Below are positions 13,687 through 61,131 of a stretch of 64,000 nucleotides of DNA, in pieces. This stretch comes from Eledone cirrhosa (taxonomy: Eukaryota): the NCBI GenBank assembly GCA_964016885.1, contig OZ024742.1, forward strand, positions 341,000,001 through 341,064,000, read 5' to 3'. Position numbers and translations under genes: made by a program. The notes under the pieces are model-generated. The model had not been told where the DNA came from. It was given only the letters and a program-made list of their open reading frames with translations, and did no database searches. Every line of letters begins with the position of its first letter. Position 1 is the stretch's first letter.

Positions 13687-13737
13687 AGATTCTACAGGAC
13701 TAGAACTGTTTCATTCATTAGAAATCATCAGGAATCT
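13687..13737 (-). ncRNA. Type I hammerhead ribozyme, family C
   Basis: Reverse complement of 17991-18041. Confidence 0.85.
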
Positions 13738-17990: not shown

Positions 17991-18041
17991 AGATTCCTGA
18001 TGATTTCTAATGAATGAAACAGTTCTAGTCCTGTAGAATCT
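17991..18041 (+). ncRNA. Type I hammerhead ribozyme, family C
   Basis: AGAUUC-CUGAUGA-uUUC uaau GAAu-GAAA-CAG uucuaguc CUG-UA-GAAUCU. Confidence 0.88.
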
Positions 18042-20575: not shown

Positions 20576-23498
20576 CTATAGTCTGATGTAGAGTGAAGGC
20601 CCATTCACACGGGCCATTCTCGCCACTTTCACCCATCTTTCATAAAAACGGCTGGGGTGCAGCACCTCTCTCTCCATCCTGATCCTTCTTCCGAAATGAT
20701 ATCGGAAGAAACGGACCAGTTGTTGGCCAGAGAGAAAGGTGTCTGACCTCAGTCCTTTCAGACGCGTCCACCATACAACCTCTTTCGCCATGGCTATTAC
20801 GCACAGAAACACCGCCTCTCCTTCGTTTTTGAAGAGGGGAGGCGGCTTGATCGTTACAATAGACTCGGTGGTCAACCGGATCGGTCCCACCCTTGACAGC
20901 AGTTGTTCGACATAGCCCCACAGATCAGCAATGCCCGAGCAGTGTACCAATGCGTGTGCAATGGTTTCCTCGTCACACACGCATCTGGGACAGATCTTTT
21001 TCGAGGGGTCCCTACCCGGGCGCCGGTGTCTCTATAGCCTTTCTCGAACGAGCAGAGCCCTTCTGTAGCACTGCCAGGCCAGGGACCTCTGGAAGTTATC
21101 CATGGGTCCCGGGCTGAATGTCCTACCGAACATGTTGGCCAGTTCGTCTTCCTCCATGCCTAGGGTTCTCCGAGGGCGTCGTCGCACCTGCTAACCACCA
21201 GCCCTCTATAGAATGACGAGGTGGATTCTCCATTGACAGTCAGGTCCGTCTGCTAGAGAGCCGTGAGCGCCTGGGCACACTCGGTGTGCCAGACGCCCAG
21301 TTTTGTCGGTCTTTGCTTGACCCAGGATTGCAGCTCGGTGAGTGAGACGAGTCTGGGAAAGGCTCGCCTCACAAACGTGGCCCACACCGGTTGACCGGAG
21401 AGGAATACCTGGAGGTGCCGTAGCCTTAATGCGTGTTTACCTATCATTAGCCACGGCATCCCCAGCCCTCCTTTCGAAGGGTGTTGACAGCAGATGGATC
21501 TCCTCACCATAGGAGCCCGCTTCTTCCAAAGGAATTGGAAGAGTACGCGCTCCATTTTGGCGAGCGTTTCCCTTGGGCAAGGCACAACGGTCAGGCGGTA
21601 GTAGATGACGGACGATATATAAGTGTTCGCCACCTCCGCTGTGCATGGCATTGATCCAGCCCCTGAAAACGGGTCCGAAGCCTGCCGCCGCTAGCACCGC
21701 ATCCAGGTAACCATGGTCGACCCTATCGAATGCCTTAGATTGATCCAAGTTGATCAGGGCCCCACCAAAGCCGGGTTCGTTCCCAACCCTCTCTATGATG
21801 TATCGCATGAGGTGGAGGTTGTCGTGGATGGACCTGGACGGGATAGCACATGTCTGCGCATCTCCCACCAGGTTGCCCACGACAAGCGCCAACCTCTTTG
21901 CTAGCACCTTGGCCCAAATCTGTAACTCTGTATTTAGTTATGGGCCTGAAATTATTTATATCGTCCCCTTTGTTCTCGTCCTTCCTCACTAGCGTGACTA
22001 CGCCCTTGGTCACAGCACAGGGAATTCTCCCGTTCTGTTGCCAGTTTCAGTAGACCGCCTTGAGGATATCGGGGAACAAGTCCGGCATAGCTAGATATAG
22101 TTCGTATGGAAGACCATCGAGACCCGGGGATTTGCGTTTGCCGCATTGGCTCAGCACGTCCTCTATCTCAGCGGCTGAAATCGGCTCCTCGCAGGACTTC
22201 ACCTCCCTGTCCGAGAGAAGCGGCAGGCCGTCGAGGTATGGACCGAAGTCCACATCCCCAACCGGCTCCCCGCCCCTTCCGAACAATCCGGCAAAGTGCT
22301 TTTGAGAAGCCTCGCACATCTGCTTGGGTTCAAGGATCACCCGTCCATCCTGGTCTCGCAAAGACCGGATAGTGGATCTGCTCCCTCTTTTGGCTTCTGT
22401 CACGCGGGCCCAGCTAACAGCTTTGGTCCCCTCGTTTCCCAGAGCACGTATTTTGCTTCGGACGATGCAGCCTTCGTGTTTCGCGTCGAAGAACTGGCCC
22501 AGGGCCGTTCTCGACGCTAGCACTCTGGCCACGTCGCCGCTTCTAATTGCCTCTTATACACTATCTACCAACTCCCTTTCCTTCCTATTTCTATTTGAGG
22601 CTAACTCCTTACTAAACTCTATAGAGACTACTCTAATCTCTCTTTTGAGAGATCCCCACCACCTGCTGTTGACGATGGCGCCCGTCAAGCGCTCCTTAAC
22701 TAAAGTGCTAATCCGGTCCCTGTAAGCCTTACTTGCCGGTAAGGACAAGTTGAGCTTCCAGTAACCGGGTCCCTGTCAATGAGTTCGTTCAAGGTTGACC
22801 ATGCAGATCACTAACTTGTGGTCTGTATAGCCAACCATGCGCATTTTTGGACAACTTAAAAAGTCCTTATCCTTAATTCTAACTAAGAACCTATCTAGGT
22901 ACGACCTAGATGATCCGCTACGATTTGCCCAAGTCCAGGTTGGCGCAGTCGGAAAATCTAGTCGATATCTATCGGCCAGATCAAATCGACCGATTAACCC
23001 TTTGAGGCTATTACACACCTCTCTATCGGGACAGGCCCCTACGTAGTCCCAGCGTGCATCTAGGATACCATTCCAGTTCCCCACTAATAGCAAGGAGCGG
23101 GACGTCCCTAGAAAAGTCTCCAGACGATGGAAGAAGTCCGGCCGCATTGACCCGAAAGGGCCGTATGCGGCTACCAACCTAAACGCTCCGCCTTCACCAC
23201 TGCCAAGGTCCAGAACCACTAGACGACCCTCCGGGTCCAAATGTACCATCTGTGTTGCGAGACCCAGATGTTTTTGCAGCAGAACGACAACCCCACCCCC
23301 ACCTCCGGGCTGACAGAGAGATGCGTGCATCTCAAAGTCATCAAAGGTGGGGGCCAGCTGTCGCACGTTGCTGATCCGGGCCTCGCAAATAACCATCACA
23401 TCTATACGTTGTGACATGAGGTCATTTAGAAGCATTGCTTGCTTCCAAGTTGAGCCCAGGCCACGCGCATTTAAACAGCCTACTCTTAGCATAGCCAT
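20576..23498 (-). pseudogene. LINE ORF2: APE endonuclease, RT and C-terminal CCHC; frameshifted, RT core partly deleted
   Basis: CLNARGL, GNWN, SYLDRF, TDH; KSPGLDGLPYELY, NFRPIT, LDQSKAFDRVDH; EETIAHALVHC; the QG/YADD region is missing near 21640. Confidence 0.9.
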
Positions 23499-23522
23499 GT
23501 TGGTGGTGAAGAGAAAAGGCAC

Positions 23523-29059: not shown

Positions 29060-29339
29060 AAAATGGCGTAGACATACAATAGAACAGGAGGAAGATAATA
29101 GTACCACTGATGATGTTGCAGATATGCAACGAAAGAACTTTGTTAGACTATATATGTATTTATATCTGTATTTTTGACCGTTGGTCAGTCAGTGATAAAC
29201 ATTGAGGACCAAATGAATTAACTGTGGAGATATAAAAGATACAGAAACGAAAACCAACTAAACAGTGAGTGTGTTCTGTTATTATTTCTGGCAATATTAT
29301 TACAACAATATGACCCTCCCCAAGTATAACAATTATATA

Positions 29340-34999: not shown

Positions 35000-35033
<34 letters not shown>

Positions 35034-35039
<6 letters not shown>

Positions 35040-35266
35040 GTACAGTAGTATGTATATACATACATACATGCACACATATATGTACGTATGGGTTTACCGA
35101 ACTCTTATTATAATGTTCGGTTTGTTTGTAAACAAATATATATGTGTACTTGTATATATGTATATACATACTACTGTACGTCTGTATACATATTTGTATG
35201 TACTTATACATACTTATATTTAAGTATCAGCCGTACAAATAGTGAGAAATGAAATTTCATTTTTAG

Positions 35267-35268
<2 letters not shown>
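35034..35268. repeat. Short inverted derivative of family G
   Basis: AGACGTACAGTAGTATG...CATACTACTGTACGTCT; homologous to 37072-37670 and 52255-53108. Confidence 0.75.
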
Positions 35269-37032: not shown

Positions 37033-37071
<39 letters not shown>

Positions 37072-37075
<4 letters not shown>

Positions 37076-37670
37076 TATGTATACGTACATACATATATGT
37101 ATACAGACGTACAGTAGTATGTATATATATATACATACATGCACACATATATATATATATGTACGTATGGATTCGCCAAACATTTATTATAATGCTCGGT
37201 GTGTTTGTAAACAAACATGCCGTATTAAGCCGTAGTGTCTAGCAACCACCGTTGCTCGTTTGTTCAACACTGACAAAGGAACGCTGTACTAGTTTCACGC
37301 TTGTTAGCTATCGTCAGCAACATATACCTTCCTGCCAGATAGTTGAACGTCCGAAAGTATATACTTTCCTTATGCATATTAACGGCTGAGCAGGCTAATT
37401 TGCATATCGAGTTGGTTAATCGGCCGGGTGCACCGAAAACGATAAACGGAAAAAATGAAACGAAATTTCATTTCCCAACCTTAGTACGGCTGTTACTTAA
37501 ATGTAAGTATGTATACCTGCATACATATATGTATACAGACGTACAGTAGTATGTATATATATATTCATACATGCACACATATATATATGTACGTATAGAT
37601 ACACCAAACATTTATTATAATGCTCGGTGTGTTTGTAAACAAACAACCCGTATTAAGCCGTTGTTCGTTT
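37072..37670 (-). mobile_element. Family G: ORF-less 432-bp monomer, about 1.4 tandem copies, with a hammerhead
   Basis: TAAGTATGTATAC...CAGACGTACAGTAG at 37072 and 37504. Confidence 0.8.
37282..37322 (-). ncRNA. Minimal type I hammerhead, family G
   Basis: UGUUG-CUGACGA-uaGCuaacaaGCgu-GAAA-CUAG-UA-CAGCG. Confidence 0.75.
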
Positions 37671-52196: not shown

Positions 52197-52253
<57 letters not shown>

Positions 52254-52471
52254 TATGTATGTATGTATACGTACATACATATATGTATACAGACGTACAG
52301 TAGTATGTATATATATACATACATGCACACATATATATATGCACGTATCGGTTTACCGAACATTTATTATAATGCTCGGTTTGTTTGTTTGTAAACAAAC
52401 AAACAGCCCGAATTACGCCGTACAGTGTTTAGGCAACCACGTCACCTTTTTGTTCAACACTGACACAGGAA

Positions 52472-52512
52472 CGGTGTATTAGTTTCAAGCTTATTAGCTA
52501 TCGTCAGCATCG
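52472..52512 (-). ncRNA. Hammerhead, family G, slightly degenerate
   Basis: CGAUG-CUGACGA-...-GAAA-CUAA-UA-CACCG. Confidence 0.65.
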
Positions 52513-52793
52513 TATACCTTCCTGCCAGATGGTTGAACGTCTGAAAGTATATACTTTCCTTATGCATATTAACGGCTGAGCAGCCTAATTTGCATATCGA
52601 GTGAGTTCAGTCGGCCGGGCACACTGTACTAAGAGTGAGTATTTGAAATTTCGTTTCATTCTATTCCATTTATCGTTTTCGGTGCGCCCGGCCGACTTAA
52701 CTCACTCGATATGCAAATTAGGCTGCTCAGCCGTTAATATGCATAAGGAAAGTATATACTTTCAGACGTTCAACCATCTGGCAGGAAGATATA

Positions 52794-52834
52794 CGATGCT
52801 GACGATAGCTAATAAGCTTGAAACTAGTACATCG
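52794..52834 (+). ncRNA. Minimal type I hammerhead, family G
   Basis: CGAUG-CUGACGA-uAGCU aaua AGCUu-GAAA-CUAG-UA-CAUCG. Confidence 0.88.
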
Positions 52835-53103
52835 ATCCTGTGTCAGTGTTGAACAAAAAGGTGACGTGGTTGCCTAAACACTGTACGGCGTAATTCGGGC
52901 TGTTTTTTTGTTTACAAACAAACAAATCGAGCATTATAATAAATGTTCGGTAAACTGATACGTGCATATATATATGTGTGCATGTATGTATATATATATG
53001 CATACTACTGTCCGTCTGTATACATATATGTATGTACGTATACATACATTTAAGTAAGTGCCGTACTAAGAGTGAGAAATGAAATTTCGTTTAATTCTAT
53101 TCC

Positions 53104-53143
<40 letters not shown>

Positions 53144-59019: not shown

Positions 59020-59062
59020 GTAATCTACGCGTTTCATTCTCGTAAGAAATCATCAGGACTAC
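59020..59062 (-). ncRNA. Minimal type I hammerhead, family I
   Basis: GUAGUC-CUGAUGA-uUUCU uacg AGAAu-GAAA-CGCG-UA-GAUUAC. Confidence 0.9.
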
Positions 59063-59329: not shown

Positions 59330-59372
59330 GTAATCTACGCGTTTCATTCTCGTAAGAAATCATCAGGACTAC
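59330..59372 (-). ncRNA. Minimal type I hammerhead, family I
   Basis: Identical to 59020-59062, 310 bp away. Confidence 0.9.
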
Positions 59373-61075: not shown

Positions 61076-61131
61076 ACTGCCTGATGAGGTCATAGCCATT
61101 CAATGGCTATCATCGAAATATATATAGCAGT
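61076..61131 (+). ncRNA. Type I hammerhead, family J
   Basis: ACUGC-CUGAUGA-G...AUAGCCAU uca AUGGCUAU...C-GAAA-UAUAUA-UA-GCAGU, followed by AATAAA. Confidence 0.88.

What the first reader, a model, noticed from the sequence alone, without database searches (positions are those of the whole stretch)
52255..53108. Family G: a second retrozyme-like monomer (about 432-437 nt) seen as a tandem, an inverted dimer and a mini-palindrome
Seen: the same ORF-less unit occurs as 1.4 direct copies (37072-37670), an inverted dimer (52255-53108) and a short foldback (35034-35268). Its 41-nt HHR keeps stem I pairing despite sequence change (UGUUG/CAGCG versus CGAUG/CAUCG). Inference: selection on the ribozyme fold, and PLE-style tandem or inverted integration of a small RNA parasite.
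Basis: partly seen in the sequence, partly recalled or inferred. Interest (0 to 1): 0.75.

Follow-up and report, generated by a model that had tools for sequence, protein, structure and literature searches.

The report
Penelope-style hammerhead retrozyme family
This is a head-to-head double copy of a 436-base, protein-free repeat with a hammerhead ribozyme motif that occurs over 23,000 times in this animal genome next to TA microsatellites, in the pattern that Penelope-like retrotransposons leave, so those elements likely copy it from an RNA that is predicted to cut itself; it is a new member of a known kind of element (animal retrozymes).

Summary
Window 52259-53109 holds two copies of a 436-nt ORF-less unit joined head-to-head between (TA)n runs. 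37075-37661 is a 1.4-unit direct copy. 35004-35268 is a short head-to-head pair.

Each unit carries a minimal type I hammerhead: CUGACGA core, a U.U mismatch at the base of helix II, and a one-pair helix III with the palindromic loop CUAG. Rfam does not call it. Three related families in this genome keep the same 48-nt frame with compensatory changes in all helices (94.9% of cells paired against 79.5% in shuffles).

The core occurs 23,602 to 27,060 times in the 3.0-Gb genome. Copies show the Penelope-like footprint:
- two fixed 3' ends;
- variable 5' truncation;
- continuous tandems of up to 7 units in one arm;
- only head-to-head inversions (14 of 14);
- a 48-nt tail at one end;
- TA-microsatellite flanks.

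The genome is rich in Penelope-like elements, which also end at (TA)n. Copy ends avoid the predicted cleavage site (4 and 0 hits against 1,488 at the fixed end), so the template crosses it uncut or religated.

Self-cleavage, circular RNA and the helper element are untested. Verdict: a new member of the animal non-LTR retrozymes, of moderate interest.

The parts
52200..52251 (.). Left (TA)n microsatellite flank
   Evidence: Read directly. TA runs flank most of the sampled copies.
52259..52626 (-). Inverted, 5'-truncated arm (unit about 56-430). Its 3' end (class B) faces the left (TA)n.
   Evidence: BLAST to the unit gives 58-425 at 97%. The junction was read; two CpG transitions hide unit 56-57.
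52470..52517 (-). Hammerhead frame of the left arm, damaged: the helix III loop reads CUAA and stem I has a mismatch.
   Evidence: row window_52442_-. The changed G is invariant in 42 of 42 rows of alignment A1.
52626..53060 (+). Full unit of family G, on the hammerhead sense strand
   Evidence: Genome copies are 93-97% identical to it.
52633..52707 (+). Predicted 3' domain. Closing stem 52633-52640 / 52700-52707 encloses the unpaired AU-rich stretch that holds fixed end A (…CCAUUUAU, 52666-52673).
   Evidence: Fold. The stem GAGUGAG/CUCACUC becomes GAGUGGG/CCCACUC in the 85% subfamily and GCGAG/CUCGC in family G2.
52790..52837 (+). 48-nt minimal type I hammerhead frame. Stem I is ACGAUG/CAUCGA; core CUGACGA; helix II is U.U plus AGCU/AGCU; then GAAA and helix III A[CUAG]U. 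Predicted cut lies between 52829 and 52830.
   Evidence: Best Rfam match is Hammerhead_HH9 at 14.5 bits, E 0.21 in an 81-nt search.
52966..53052 (+). TA/TG-rich hairpin module (unit about 342-428), resembling the (TA)n target. It holds fixed end B and many 5' ends.
   Evidence: It gives spurious mir-297-type Rfam matches.
53063..53109 (+). 48-nt tail (unit 2-49) ending …TTCCATTTAT at fixed 3' end A, present at one end only
   Evidence: The same junction to (AT)n occurs 1,488 times genome-wide.
53110..53140 (.). Right (TA)n microsatellite flank
   Evidence: Read directly.
37075..37661 (-). Older 1.4-unit direct copy (84-86%). Its 3' end lies at (TA)n 37037-37072 and its 5' end is truncated at unit 261. 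Its hammerhead frame is 37279-37326.
35004..35268 (.). Short head-to-head pair of an older subfamily: minus-strand unit 283-425, plus-strand unit 341-432, then a tail, between two (TA)n runs. Neither arm reaches the hammerhead.

Best explanation
Family G is a non-coding, hammerhead-bearing retroelement of the animal non-LTR retrozyme kind, and its copies were likely made by the reverse transcriptase-endonuclease of a Penelope-like element (PLE) acting at TA microsatellites.

Shown:
- The unit is 436 nt and has no ORF.
- It carries a minimal type I hammerhead frame kept by covariation.
- There are at least 23,602 copies of the core.
- Insertions lie next to (TA)n and have one of two fixed 3' ends. 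End A is …CCATTTAT at unit 49, which adds a 48-nt tail. End B lies at about unit 425-430, at the edge of a TA-rich module.
- 5' ends vary.
- Tandems are continuous across unit borders.
- Inversions are only head-to-head, usually with one A end and one B end.
- Copy ends are almost never at the predicted ribozyme cut.

Inferred mechanism:
1. Genomic copies are transcribed.
2. Hammerheads of neighbouring units pair through the palindromic ACUAGU to form active dimers, which would cut the RNA into monomers.
3. A host RNA ligase would close the monomers into circles.
4. A PLE enzyme nicks (TA)n. Both nicked strands carry the same self-complementary sequence and would prime cDNA at the AU-rich sites A and B (twin priming).
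5. The polymerase would run round the circle, or along an uncut multimer, giving multimers.
6. Synthesis stops at variable points, and the two cDNAs are joined head-to-head.
For: Hammerhead.
- Core words are present.
- The 48-nt frame is shared without gaps by family G, its subfamilies, family G2 and the L015/L077 family.
- On 42 distinct rows, 94.9% of cells pair, against 79.5 +/- 1.1% in shuffles (0 of 500 reach the observed value). 9 of 13 pairs change on both sides. Slid registers give 23-40%.
- At stem I position 4, 98 of the 100 listed genome copies pair: about 48 U.G, 40 G.U and 10 A-U. This tally was made by eye.
- The palindromic loop changes from CUAG to CAUG: 25 U-A against 16 A-U.
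- The one-pair helix III costs +5.4 kcal/mol in cis, whereas the 6-bp trans duplex gives -6.8 kcal/mol.
- A U.U mismatch at the base of helix II, and a one-pair helix III with a palindromic tetraloop, are both described for axolotl retrozyme hammerheads that cut as dimers (PMC7229834, passages read).

Copy number. Exact hits number 23,602 and 27,060; controls give 0.

Footprint.
- In 32 complexes, 18 are head-to-head, 14 are in one orientation and 0 are tail-to-tail. Of the 18, 12 have one A and one B end.
- In the first 22 Mb of contig C1, 100 hammerheads fall into 58 clusters. All 14 opposite-strand neighbours are (-,+), with spacings of 115-711 nt. The 28 same-strand neighbours are spaced 420-538 nt.
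- The end A junction occurs 1,488 times; the internal continuation occurs 1,774 times.
- Ends at the predicted cut: 4 on the 3' side and 0 on the 5' side.
- Arrays are homogeneous across both arms, at 98-100% identity.

PLE context.
- There are 10,595 GIY-YIG candidates; 150 of 150 scored pass the Pfam cut-off.
- The endonuclease sits at the C-terminus of the long ORFs, and the ORF architecture is PLE-like.
- In 18 of 24 distinct PLE loci the first microsatellite downstream of the endonuclease is (TA)n, reached by three recurrent 3' end sequences.
- 5' truncation, partial tandems, an adjacent inverted 5'-truncated copy, a 30-40-bp tail at one end and a (TA)n bias are the published PLE hallmarks (PMC8557442, passages read).

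Unit RNA. The fold is -129.6 kcal/mol, z -5.47.
Against: - No Rfam hammerhead model reaches its threshold: none at gathering, none at E<=10 in a 1-kb search, and only 14.5 bits against a cut-off of 52 in an 81-nt search.
- Position 10.1/11.1 is U.U (A.A in G2). In the axolotl this goes with weak monomer activity (PMC7229834).
- The covariation rests on few independent events (three families and a few subfamilies). The rows were also picked by a regex that required the core.
- No RNA data exist, so transcription, cleavage and circles are untested.
- DNA ends do not coincide with the ribozyme cut. A role of the hammerhead in mobilisation is therefore not demonstrated.
- A linear read-through transcript carrying a (UA)n tail would explain end A equally well.
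- No helper PLE sharing sequence with family G was found among 24 distinct PLE loci.
- The best non-self copies are 97% identical and the two arms here differ by 3%. This subfamily may no longer be active.
- The hammerhead of the left arm is mutated.
- The 30 sampled loci are the best-scoring ones, so they are biased towards full-length copies.
Confidence: 0.75

Rival explanations
1. Same element and same PLE-type insertion, but the template is a linear read-through transcript of a genomic copy that carries the flanking (UA)n as a 3' tail, as in LINE/SINE pairs with microsatellite tails. On this reading the hammerhead is a passenger or regulates RNA level, and no circle is needed. Multimers come from transcribing existing arrays or from template jumps.
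For: - End A is always followed by (AT)n (1,488 junctions), as expected if the tail is part of the RNA.
- Several one-orientation copies start at about unit 405-421, right after (TA)n (L008, L017, L028, L030). That fits a defined RNA 5' end and a terminally redundant transcript.
- Copy ends ignore the hammerhead cut.
- Craig et al. note that hammerheads may simply parasitise PLEs (PMC8557442, passage read).
Against: - The hammerhead frame is kept by compensatory change across three families that are about 67% alike, which argues for function.
- Arrays of up to 7.35 units in one arm with 99-100% identical units are what rolling round a small circle predicts, though they do not prove it.
- Animal retrozymes studied at the bench do accumulate as circles (PMC7229834, abstract and passages).
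Confidence: 0.2
2. A SINE-like repeat moved by a LINE (AP-endonuclease type) rather than by a PLE. The inversions would be ordinary L1-style twin priming.
For: - Fixed 3' ends and 5' truncation are general features of target-primed reverse transcription.
- LINE fragments with Exo_endo_phos and RVT_1 domains lie in the window at 21437-23522.
- Twin priming is known for L1 (recalled, not read here).
Against: - The full set of features is the published PLE signature: partial tandems, an adjacent inverted 5'-truncated copy in 18 of 32 complexes, a tail at one end and a (TA)n bias (PMC8557442).
- Resident PLE families end at (TA)n.
- Type I hammerheads are tied to PLEs and retrozymes (PMC7761336; bioRxiv 10.64898/2026.07.22.740005).
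Confidence: 0.04
3. A DNA-level repeat, in which the hammerhead-like words are fortuitous. Candidates are a foldback or MITE-type transposon, a Helitron-associated satellite, or a satellite spread by recombination.
For: - There are inverted arms, AT-rich targets and tandem arrays.
- Rfam does not call the ribozyme.
Against: - Inverted junctions vary: hammerhead-to-hammerhead spacings run from 115 to 711 nt and junction positions are scattered. There are therefore no fixed terminal inverted repeats.
- 5' ends vary and there are no TC…CTRR ends.
- About 58 dispersed clusters lie in 22 Mb, which is not one satellite block.
- Covariation supports the ribozyme frame.
Confidence: 0.01

Closest known systems
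Animal non-LTR retrozymes (coral, mussel, axolotl Rtz_331/Rtz_353): Cervera & de la Pena 2020, PMC7229834; review PMC7761336
   Same: - Short, AT-rich (36.9% GC), ORF-less units in tandem.
- One type I hammerhead per unit.
- A one-pair helix III with a palindromic tetraloop, as in HHR_Amex1.
- A U.U mismatch at the base of helix II, as in HHR_Amex2.
- A strongly self-paired unit RNA.
- Co-occurrence with PLEs.
   Different: - The unit is longer (436 nt; subfamilies 420-538 nt) than the 150-400 nt quoted.
- Both weak features (the U.U mismatch and the one-pair helix III) occur in the same motif.
- RNA, circles and cleavage are not tested here.
- The review states that the animal repeats show no motif pointing to the helper element. 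Here the insertion footprint (two fixed 3' ends, a tail, (TA)n, head-to-head only) points to a PLE.
Penelope-like elements and their insertion anatomy (Craig et al. 2021, PMC8557442); retrozymes as PLE derivatives (Li, Clavereau & Pollet 2026, bioRxiv 10.64898/2026.07.22.740005)
   Same: - Heavy 5' truncation.
- Partial tandems.
- An inverted 5'-truncated copy at the 5' side.
- A short tail at one end only.
- TA-microsatellite targets, so no readable target-site duplication.
- Hammerhead association.
   Different: - There is no reverse transcriptase or GIY-YIG ORF.
- The tail is 48 nt rather than 30-40 bp.
- The (TA)n bias was reported for Naiads (N-terminal endonuclease, no canonical hammerhead), whereas the PLEs sampled here have a C-terminal endonuclease.
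[quoted passage not shown]
Minimal dimeric hammerheads of PLE pseudo-LTRs (Cervera & de la Pena 2014; Lunse et al. 2017; both known only through citations in PMC7761336 and from recall)
   Same: A type I motif without a stable helix III, predicted to act as a dimer between tandem copies.
   Different: Family G keeps a 6-bp stem I and a 4-bp helix II inside a dedicated non-coding unit, not in a PLE terminus. I did not read these two papers.
L1 twin priming (recalled; no paper read)
   Same: Two target strands prime on one template, giving an inversion with both 3' ends outward.
   Different: - Here it affects over half of the sampled complexes.
- It uses two fixed internal sites.
- It yields arms that together can exceed one unit many times over.
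- It is favoured by a self-complementary (TA)n target (inference).
Plant LTR retrozymes (PMC4918200; search listing and review text only)
   Same: Non-autonomous elements whose hammerheads yield circular RNA intermediates.
   Different: The plant elements have type III hammerheads inside LTRs of about 350 bp, PBS and PPT motifs, 4-bp TSDs and Ty3/Gypsy helpers. None of these is present here.

Membership tests
Animal non-LTR retrozyme | A type I hammerhead motif with a complete catalytic core in each unit | tested here: met
   CUGA(C/U)GA, GAAA, A15.1-U16.1 and H17 (A or U) are present, and stem I is open (type I). Covariation supports all helices. No Rfam threshold is reached.
Animal non-LTR retrozyme | Units of a few hundred bp in head-to-tail repeats, AT-rich, without LTR/PBS/PPT and without an ORF | tested here: met
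   Tandem spacings are 420-538 nt, with up to 7.35 units in one arm. GC is 36.9% and the longest sense ATG ORF is 37 aa. LTR, PBS and PPT were not searched for formally; none was seen on reading.
Animal non-LTR retrozyme | Self-cleavage of the transcript at the hammerhead | not testable with these tools
   Only predicted. The monomer fold is unfavourable and the trans helix III is favourable.
Animal non-LTR retrozyme | Expression as linear and circular RNA of unit length | tested here: inconclusive
   No run is on record as RNA. The runs laid are contigs of unknown kind and cannot show ends or circles.
Animal non-LTR retrozyme | Co-occurrence with Penelope-like elements in the genome | tested here: met
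   There are 10,595 GIY-YIG candidates, and 150 of 150 scored pass the cut-off. Long RT-EN ORFs are present.
PLE-mobilised (non-autonomous PLE) insertion | Fixed 3' end, variable 5' truncation and partial tandems | tested here: met
   The end A junction occurs 1,488 times.
PLE-mobilised (non-autonomous PLE) insertion | An inverted 5'-truncated copy adjacent at the 5' side, and a short tail at one end only | tested here: met
   18 of 32 complexes are head-to-head and 0 are tail-to-tail; 12 of the 18 have one A (tail) end and one B end. 14 of 14 opposite-strand neighbours are head-to-head.
PLE-mobilised (non-autonomous PLE) insertion | Sequence shared with the terminus (pseudo-LTR) of an autonomous PLE of the same genome | tested here: not met
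   BLAST of units G and G2 against 24 distinct PLE loci found only separate family G arrays lying nearby. The sample is tiny against more than 10,000 candidates, so this lowers the claim but does not exclude it.
PLE-mobilised (non-autonomous PLE) insertion | Same target preference as the resident PLEs | tested here: met
   In 18 of 24 distinct PLE loci (TA)n is the first microsatellite after the endonuclease, abutted by recurrent 3' end sequences.
MITE / foldback DNA transposon | Constant terminal inverted repeats and target-site duplications | tested here: not met
   Junctions and arm lengths vary. TSDs are unreadable inside (TA)n.

The most novel reading that the evidence does not exclude
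The Penelope-type enzyme does not start at an RNA end. It aligns the two identical 3' ends of a nicked, self-complementary (TA)n target on two fixed internal AU-rich sites of a circular retrozyme RNA. Site A is …CCAUUUAU, in the open loop of a stem kept by covariation; site B is at the edge of a TA-rich module that mimics the target. This resembles the internal templating of telomerase, the enzyme's relative. The polymerase then runs round the circle. This single scheme would explain the head-to-head-only arrays, the one-sided 48-nt tail, the multimers of identical units and the near absence of copy ends at the ribozyme cut. By extension it would explain the long-puzzling tandem/inverted/tail anatomy of Penelope-like elements themselves.
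Probability: 0.3. Interest if true: 0.7.

Novelty: new member of a known kind. Interest (0 to 1): 0.42.

Why it matters
Animal retrozymes are known, and their link to Penelope-like elements has been proposed from co-occurrence and, in Xenopus, from sequence similarity. How they are copied is still unknown.

This family offers tens of thousands of copies with an unusually readable footprint:
- two fixed 3' ends;
- a strict head-to-head rule;
- a one-sided tail;
- arrays of identical units;
- ends that avoid the ribozyme cut.

Together these turn 'what is the template and where does reverse transcription start?' into a question that a bench assay with a (TA)n target could answer. The family also shows a hammerhead variant that standard covariance models miss. 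Genome annotations of such species therefore under-count ribozymes.

Tried and rejected
Rfam.
- The whole window at gathering gave nothing.
- A 1-kb scan at E<=10 gave only low-complexity miRNA-type matches to the TA-rich hairpin, which I treat as spurious.
- 14 PLE loci at gathering gave nothing, although they hold canonical-looking hammerheads. One of these scores 31.7 bits against a cut-off of 34. An Rfam blank is therefore uninformative here.

RNA evidence. No RNA holder is listed. Contigs of four runs of unknown kind cover the repeat in thousands of short pieces. They show neither ends, strand nor circles, and their joints are what a high-copy repeat gives.

Helper element. BLAST of units G and G2 against 12 + 14 PLE loci (24 distinct) found only neighbouring family G arrays (L073, L074). 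The PLE ORFs beside those arrays are unrelated to each other. A hammerhead 940 nt downstream of one PLE turned out to belong to yet another small head-to-head element.

Protein atlas. It confirmed the PLE architecture but gave no usable taxon.

Target-site duplications cannot be read inside microsatellites.

Rejected readings.
- MITE, foldback and Helitron were rejected because the junctions vary and there are no fixed 5' ends.
- The idea that copies are primed at the 3' end of hammerhead-cut linear monomers was rejected: 4 junctions and 0 junctions, against 1,488 at end A.
- A snap-back origin of the inverted arm was considered because two complexes have near-symmetric junctions (285|283 and 279|278). 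Most junctions are asymmetric and the arms end at different sites, so twin priming is preferred.

Failed or empty calls.
- A first circular-fold script timed out in my shuffling routine. The z-score was taken from strand folding instead.
- The search of earlier findings by place and by sequence returned nothing.
Full report
**What is in the window.**
The stretch 52259-53109 is two copies of one non-coding unit joined head-to-head. The repeat finder gives arms 52308-52624 and 52682-52998 (317 nt, 97% complementary, 57 nt apart). They are extended by 52259-52340 / 52968-53049. A 436-nt direct period shows at 52644-52673 / 53080-53109.

I took window 52625-53060 as the unit, with its plus strand as the hammerhead sense strand. 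Against it:
- the left arm is minus-strand unit 58-425;
- the right arm is unit 1-436, followed by a second start, unit 2-49, ending …TTCCATTTAT at 53109.

On reading the junction, the left arm reaches unit 56 (two CpG transitions) and the right arm starts at unit 2. (TA)n runs lie outside both arms, at 52200-52251 and 53110-53140.

- 37075-37661 is a minus-strand 1.4-mer (84-86% to the unit). Its 3' end lies at (TA)n and its 5' end is cut at unit 261.
- 35004-35268 is a short head-to-head pair of an older subfamily (79-85%) between two (TA)n runs.

A head-to-tail trimer of the unit has no sense ATG ORF above 37 aa. GC is 36.9%.

**The hammerhead.**
The window has 15 CUGANGA…GAAA matches against 1.57 expected. 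Three of them belong to this family.

The motif fits a 48-nt frame (52790-52837):
- stem I ACGAUG/CAUCG(U);
- core CUGACGA;
- helix II: a U.U mismatch, then AGCU/AGCU, with loop AAUA;
- GAAA;
- helix III: the single pair A-U around the palindromic loop CUAG;
- A17, with the predicted cut between 52829 and 52830.

Rfam does not call it. There is nothing at gathering and no hammerhead at E<=10 in 1 kb. In an 81-nt search the best match is Hammerhead_HH9 at 14.5 bits, E 0.21, against a cut-off of 52. Rfam also stays silent at gathering on 140 kb of PLE loci. A canonical hammerhead there reaches only 31.7 of the 34 bits needed. The blank therefore carries little weight.

The positive evidence is comparative. 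The genome holds two further families with the same gapless frame:
- Family G2 (L018:420-800; about 67% identical to G overall; 2,644 first-look candidates). Its frame reads ACAGUC-CUGAUGA-A.GGGU-AAUG-ACCC.A-GAAA-CAUG-U-U / GAUUGU.
- A 467-nt family in L015/L077, which has a canonical G-C at the base of helix II.

A regex that demanded only the core words and spacing found 71 frames, 45 of them distinct, in everything fetched. I aligned 42 of the 45. Three were left out:
- L009:2211, by oversight;
- L021:2112, where an indel shifts the 3' strand;
- L022:1322, a copy cut inside stem I by a junction.

On those 42 rows, 94.9% of cells form standard pairs, against 79.5 +/- 1.1% after shuffling partners (0 of 500 shuffles reach it). 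9 of 13 pairs change on both sides. Sliding the partners by 1-3 columns drops pairing to 23-40% (one search was my own mis-registered string).

The trans pair inside the palindromic loop switches between U-A (25 rows) and A-U (16 rows), so ACUAGU becomes ACAUGU and stays self-complementary.

Within family G, stem I position 4 takes three paired forms. In the 100 genome copies listed, I counted by eye about 48 U.G, 40 G.U, 10 A-U and 2 U/U mismatches.

These are few independent events inherited by many copies, so they are evidence for a maintained fold in the source copies, not a statistic.

Folding agrees with a dimer. Closing helix III in cis costs 5.4 kcal/mol, while the 6-bp trans duplex gives -6.8 kcal/mol.

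Both odd features have bench precedents in axolotl retrozymes, where dimeric constructs cut far better than monomers (PMC7229834, passages read):
- a one-pair helix III capped by a palindromic tetraloop (HHR_Amex1);
- a U.U mismatch at the base of helix II (HHR_Amex2, 22% cleavage in an hour as a monomer).

**Abundance.**
The window lies at C3:341,000,001-341,064,000 of a 2.996-Gb assembly.
- The 35-nt core pattern has 12,150 + 11,452 exact hits. The looser frame has 13,963 + 13,097. The reversed-pattern controls give 0.
- Subfamilies differ at N7 (C or U), in loop II, and in unit length (tandem spacings 420-538 nt).
- The best non-self copies are 97% identical to the window unit.

**Insertion anatomy.**
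I examined 32 complexes. They comprise the 30 best-scoring loci of 40 scored among 3,540 candidates (the window's own included, so biased to long, similar copies), plus two arrays chosen from the pattern listing.
- 18 are head-to-head, 14 are in one orientation and none is tail-to-tail.
- 3' ends fall in two classes. End A is at unit 49, the 48-nt tail. End B is at about unit 425-430, at the edge of the TA-rich module.
- Of the 18 head-to-head complexes, 12 have one A and one B end. Two of the four scored 'B+B' (L014, L078) show a diverged tail in their flank on inspection.
- The window copy follows the rule: B on the left, A on the right.
- 5' ends and junctions are scattered (units 34, 56, 114, 119, 123, 165, 176, 194, 225, 231, 258, 276-296, 311, 342 …). 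They show an excess inside or at the edge of the TA-rich module in one-orientation copies.
- Tandem units are continuous across unit borders.

A less selected sample is the first 100 hammerheads along contig C1 (22 Mb).
- They form 58 clusters: 37 single and 21 multiple.
- All 14 opposite-strand neighbour pairs are (-,+), that is 5' ends facing each other, with spacings of 115-711 nt.
- None is (+,-).
- The 28 same-strand neighbours are 420-538 nt apart.

Genome-wide counts for the subfamily-specific word before end A:
- followed by (AT)n: 1,488 times (control 2);
- followed by the internal continuation: 1,774 times (control 0).

Counts for ends at the predicted ribozyme cut:
- cut followed by (TA)n: 4 times;
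- (TA)n followed by the first bases after the cut: 0 times.

The reverse-transcribed RNA therefore crosses the ribozyme site intact, either uncut or religated.

Two arrays show that a whole complex comes from one template:
- In L078 (2.35 units inverted plus 7.35 units direct), all units of both arms are 98-100% identical to each other but only 84-85% identical to the window subfamily.
- In L079, two variants alternate along the array.

**Link to Penelope-like elements.**
Craig et al. list the hallmarks of PLE insertions (PMC8557442, passages read):
- heavy 5' truncation;
- partial tandems;
- an inverted 5'-truncated copy at the 5' side;
- a 30-40-bp tail, often at one end only;
- for Naiads, (TA)n targets that hide the TSDs.

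Family G shows every one of them.

The genome is full of PLEs:
- PF01541 finds 10,595 candidates, and all 150 scored pass the cut-off.
- The long ORFs (up to 1,096 aa) carry the endonuclease at the C-terminus and resemble RT/HTH_animal/DUF8422/GIY-YIG clusters.
- In 18 of 24 distinct PLE loci the first microsatellite downstream of the endonuclease is (TA)n, reached through three recurrent 3' end sequences. The resident PLEs therefore share the target.

I did not find the helper. No PLE locus shares sequence with units G or G2 beyond separate arrays lying nearby. That is 24 loci out of more than 10,000.

The 2026 preprint by Li, Clavereau and Pollet (Results read) shows co-occurrence across 35 species. 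It also shows similarity to PLE termini for 24 of 57 Xenopus retrozyme families. The 2020 review (section 7 read) states that the animal repeats show no motif pointing to the helper.

**A conserved 3' domain.**
End A lies in an unpaired AU-rich stretch inside a small domain closed by a stem (52633-52640 / 52700-52707).
- The stem reads GAGUGAG/CUCACUC in the window subfamily and GAGUGGG/CCCACUC in the 85% subfamily (11 units, mostly from a few arrays).
- It reads GUGAGU/ACUCAC in the 467-nt family.
- Family G2 has a GGGCGAG…CUCGCCC hairpin, and its tail also ends …UUUUAU before the 3' arm.
- z-scores are modest, -2.2 to -3.9.

I read this domain as the likely recognition and start site for reverse transcription. 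That is inference.

The whole unit RNA folds at -129.6 kcal/mol (z -5.47), as described for retrozyme circles. Much of that energy comes from the TA-rich hairpin.

**Mechanism I commit to.**
Shown: the footprint described above.

Inferred:
1. Genomic copies are transcribed.
2. Hammerheads of neighbouring units pair through ACUAGU and would cut the RNA into monomers.
3. A host ligase would circularise the monomers.
4. A PLE RT-EN nicks (TA)n.
5. Because (TA)n is self-complementary, both nicked strands present the same primer. One would start at site A and the other at site B (twin priming).
6. The polymerase travels round the circle, or along an uncut multimer, for a variable distance. The two cDNAs are joined at their growing ends. 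In one-orientation copies, the TA-rich cDNA tip would instead anneal to the target.

This gives head-to-head arrays with a tail on one side.

The main rival keeps the PLE machinery but uses a linear read-through transcript with a (UA)n tail and treats the hammerhead as a passenger. It explains end A and the cluster of 5' ends near unit 405-421 equally well. I give it 0.2.

**Comparison and verdict.**
This works like, and by the testable criteria belongs to, the animal non-LTR retrozymes. It is inserted in the manner of a non-autonomous PLE. The untested membership criteria are cleavage and circular RNA. The one unmet criterion is sequence shared with a helper PLE.

Notes by other agents of this scan report the same footprint for other hammerhead families, in this genome (310-nt and 487-nt units) and in other genomes. 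I treat them as leads that agree with my reading, not as support.

The finding is real and correctly interpreted. It is a new member of a known kind. Its value lies in the clean, high-copy footprint, which makes the copying mechanism testable.

Noticed in passing
window 13709-13731 (-), 17997-18019 (+), 59032-59056 (-), 59342-59366 (-), 29107-29134 (+), 61081-61118 (+): Other hammerhead-like motifs from different families. Two share the 'CUGAUGA-U…U-GAAA' layout, with a U.U mismatch at the base of helix II. The pair at 59032/59342 is a 310-nt tandem. The window total is 15 matches against 1.57 expected.
   Followed up: no
L018:420-800 and loci L031-L050: Family G2 is an older relative, with copies 83-88% alike and 2,644 candidates. 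It has the same architecture and its own hammerhead (A.A at the base of helix II, loop CAUG). Its tail ends …TTTTAT at (TA)n.
   Followed up: partly
L015:2524-3423 continuing in L077:1-1000: A 467-nt relative with a canonical G-C at the base of helix II. Two units are 99% identical. A 32-nt inverted fragment sits at its 5' side, and its tail ends …TTTGTTTTTAT at a long (TA)n.
   Followed up: partly
L076:5940-6300: Yet another small hammerhead element, present as a head-to-head pair beside (TA)n, about 940 nt downstream of a PLE endonuclease. It is not part of that PLE.
   Followed up: no
L051-L076 (PLE loci): Three PLE families have recurrent 3' ends that directly abut (TA)n: …CCCTGTTTTCA, …CACACACACAA and …GTATGTATATATG. 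They are candidate helpers for the TA-targeting retrozymes.
   Followed up: partly
L079 (G000:C1:5539000-5546999): Units of one array alternate between two variants (a, c, a, c, a). This is what copying a dimeric circle, or duplicating dimers, would give. Unit lengths in the same array vary from 453 to 491 nt within the TA-rich module.
   Followed up: no
G000:C1:70058295-70076374: The internal family G word recurs ten times on one strand at spacings of about 1.3-2.7 kb. This suggests a higher-order repeat that contains a family G unit.
   Followed up: no
L009 and L014 flanks; L003 and L028 flanks: The (TA)n runs that received family G copies are themselves bordered by recurring sequences: …TCAGATAGGGTGTGGTAAA in one pair and …GATATTAA(T)AAATGGAAACTATATTTATA in the other. 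Many target microsatellites therefore belong to other repeat families.
   Followed up: no
window 21437-23522 (-): LINE fragments: an ORF with an RVT_1 match (E 1.1e-05, below the cut-off) and an ORF with Exo_endo_phos (E 5.8e-06).
   Followed up: no
window 52256-52340 and 52966-53052: The TA/TG-rich hairpin of the unit gives sub-threshold Rfam matches to mir-297, mir-466 and similar families, up to 62 bits against a cut-off of 90. These are low-complexity look-alikes, not miRNA genes.
   Followed up: no
run X5 (organism B): A run labelled as a different organism holds six contigs that are 90-99% like the family. A related species probably carries relatives.
   Followed up: no
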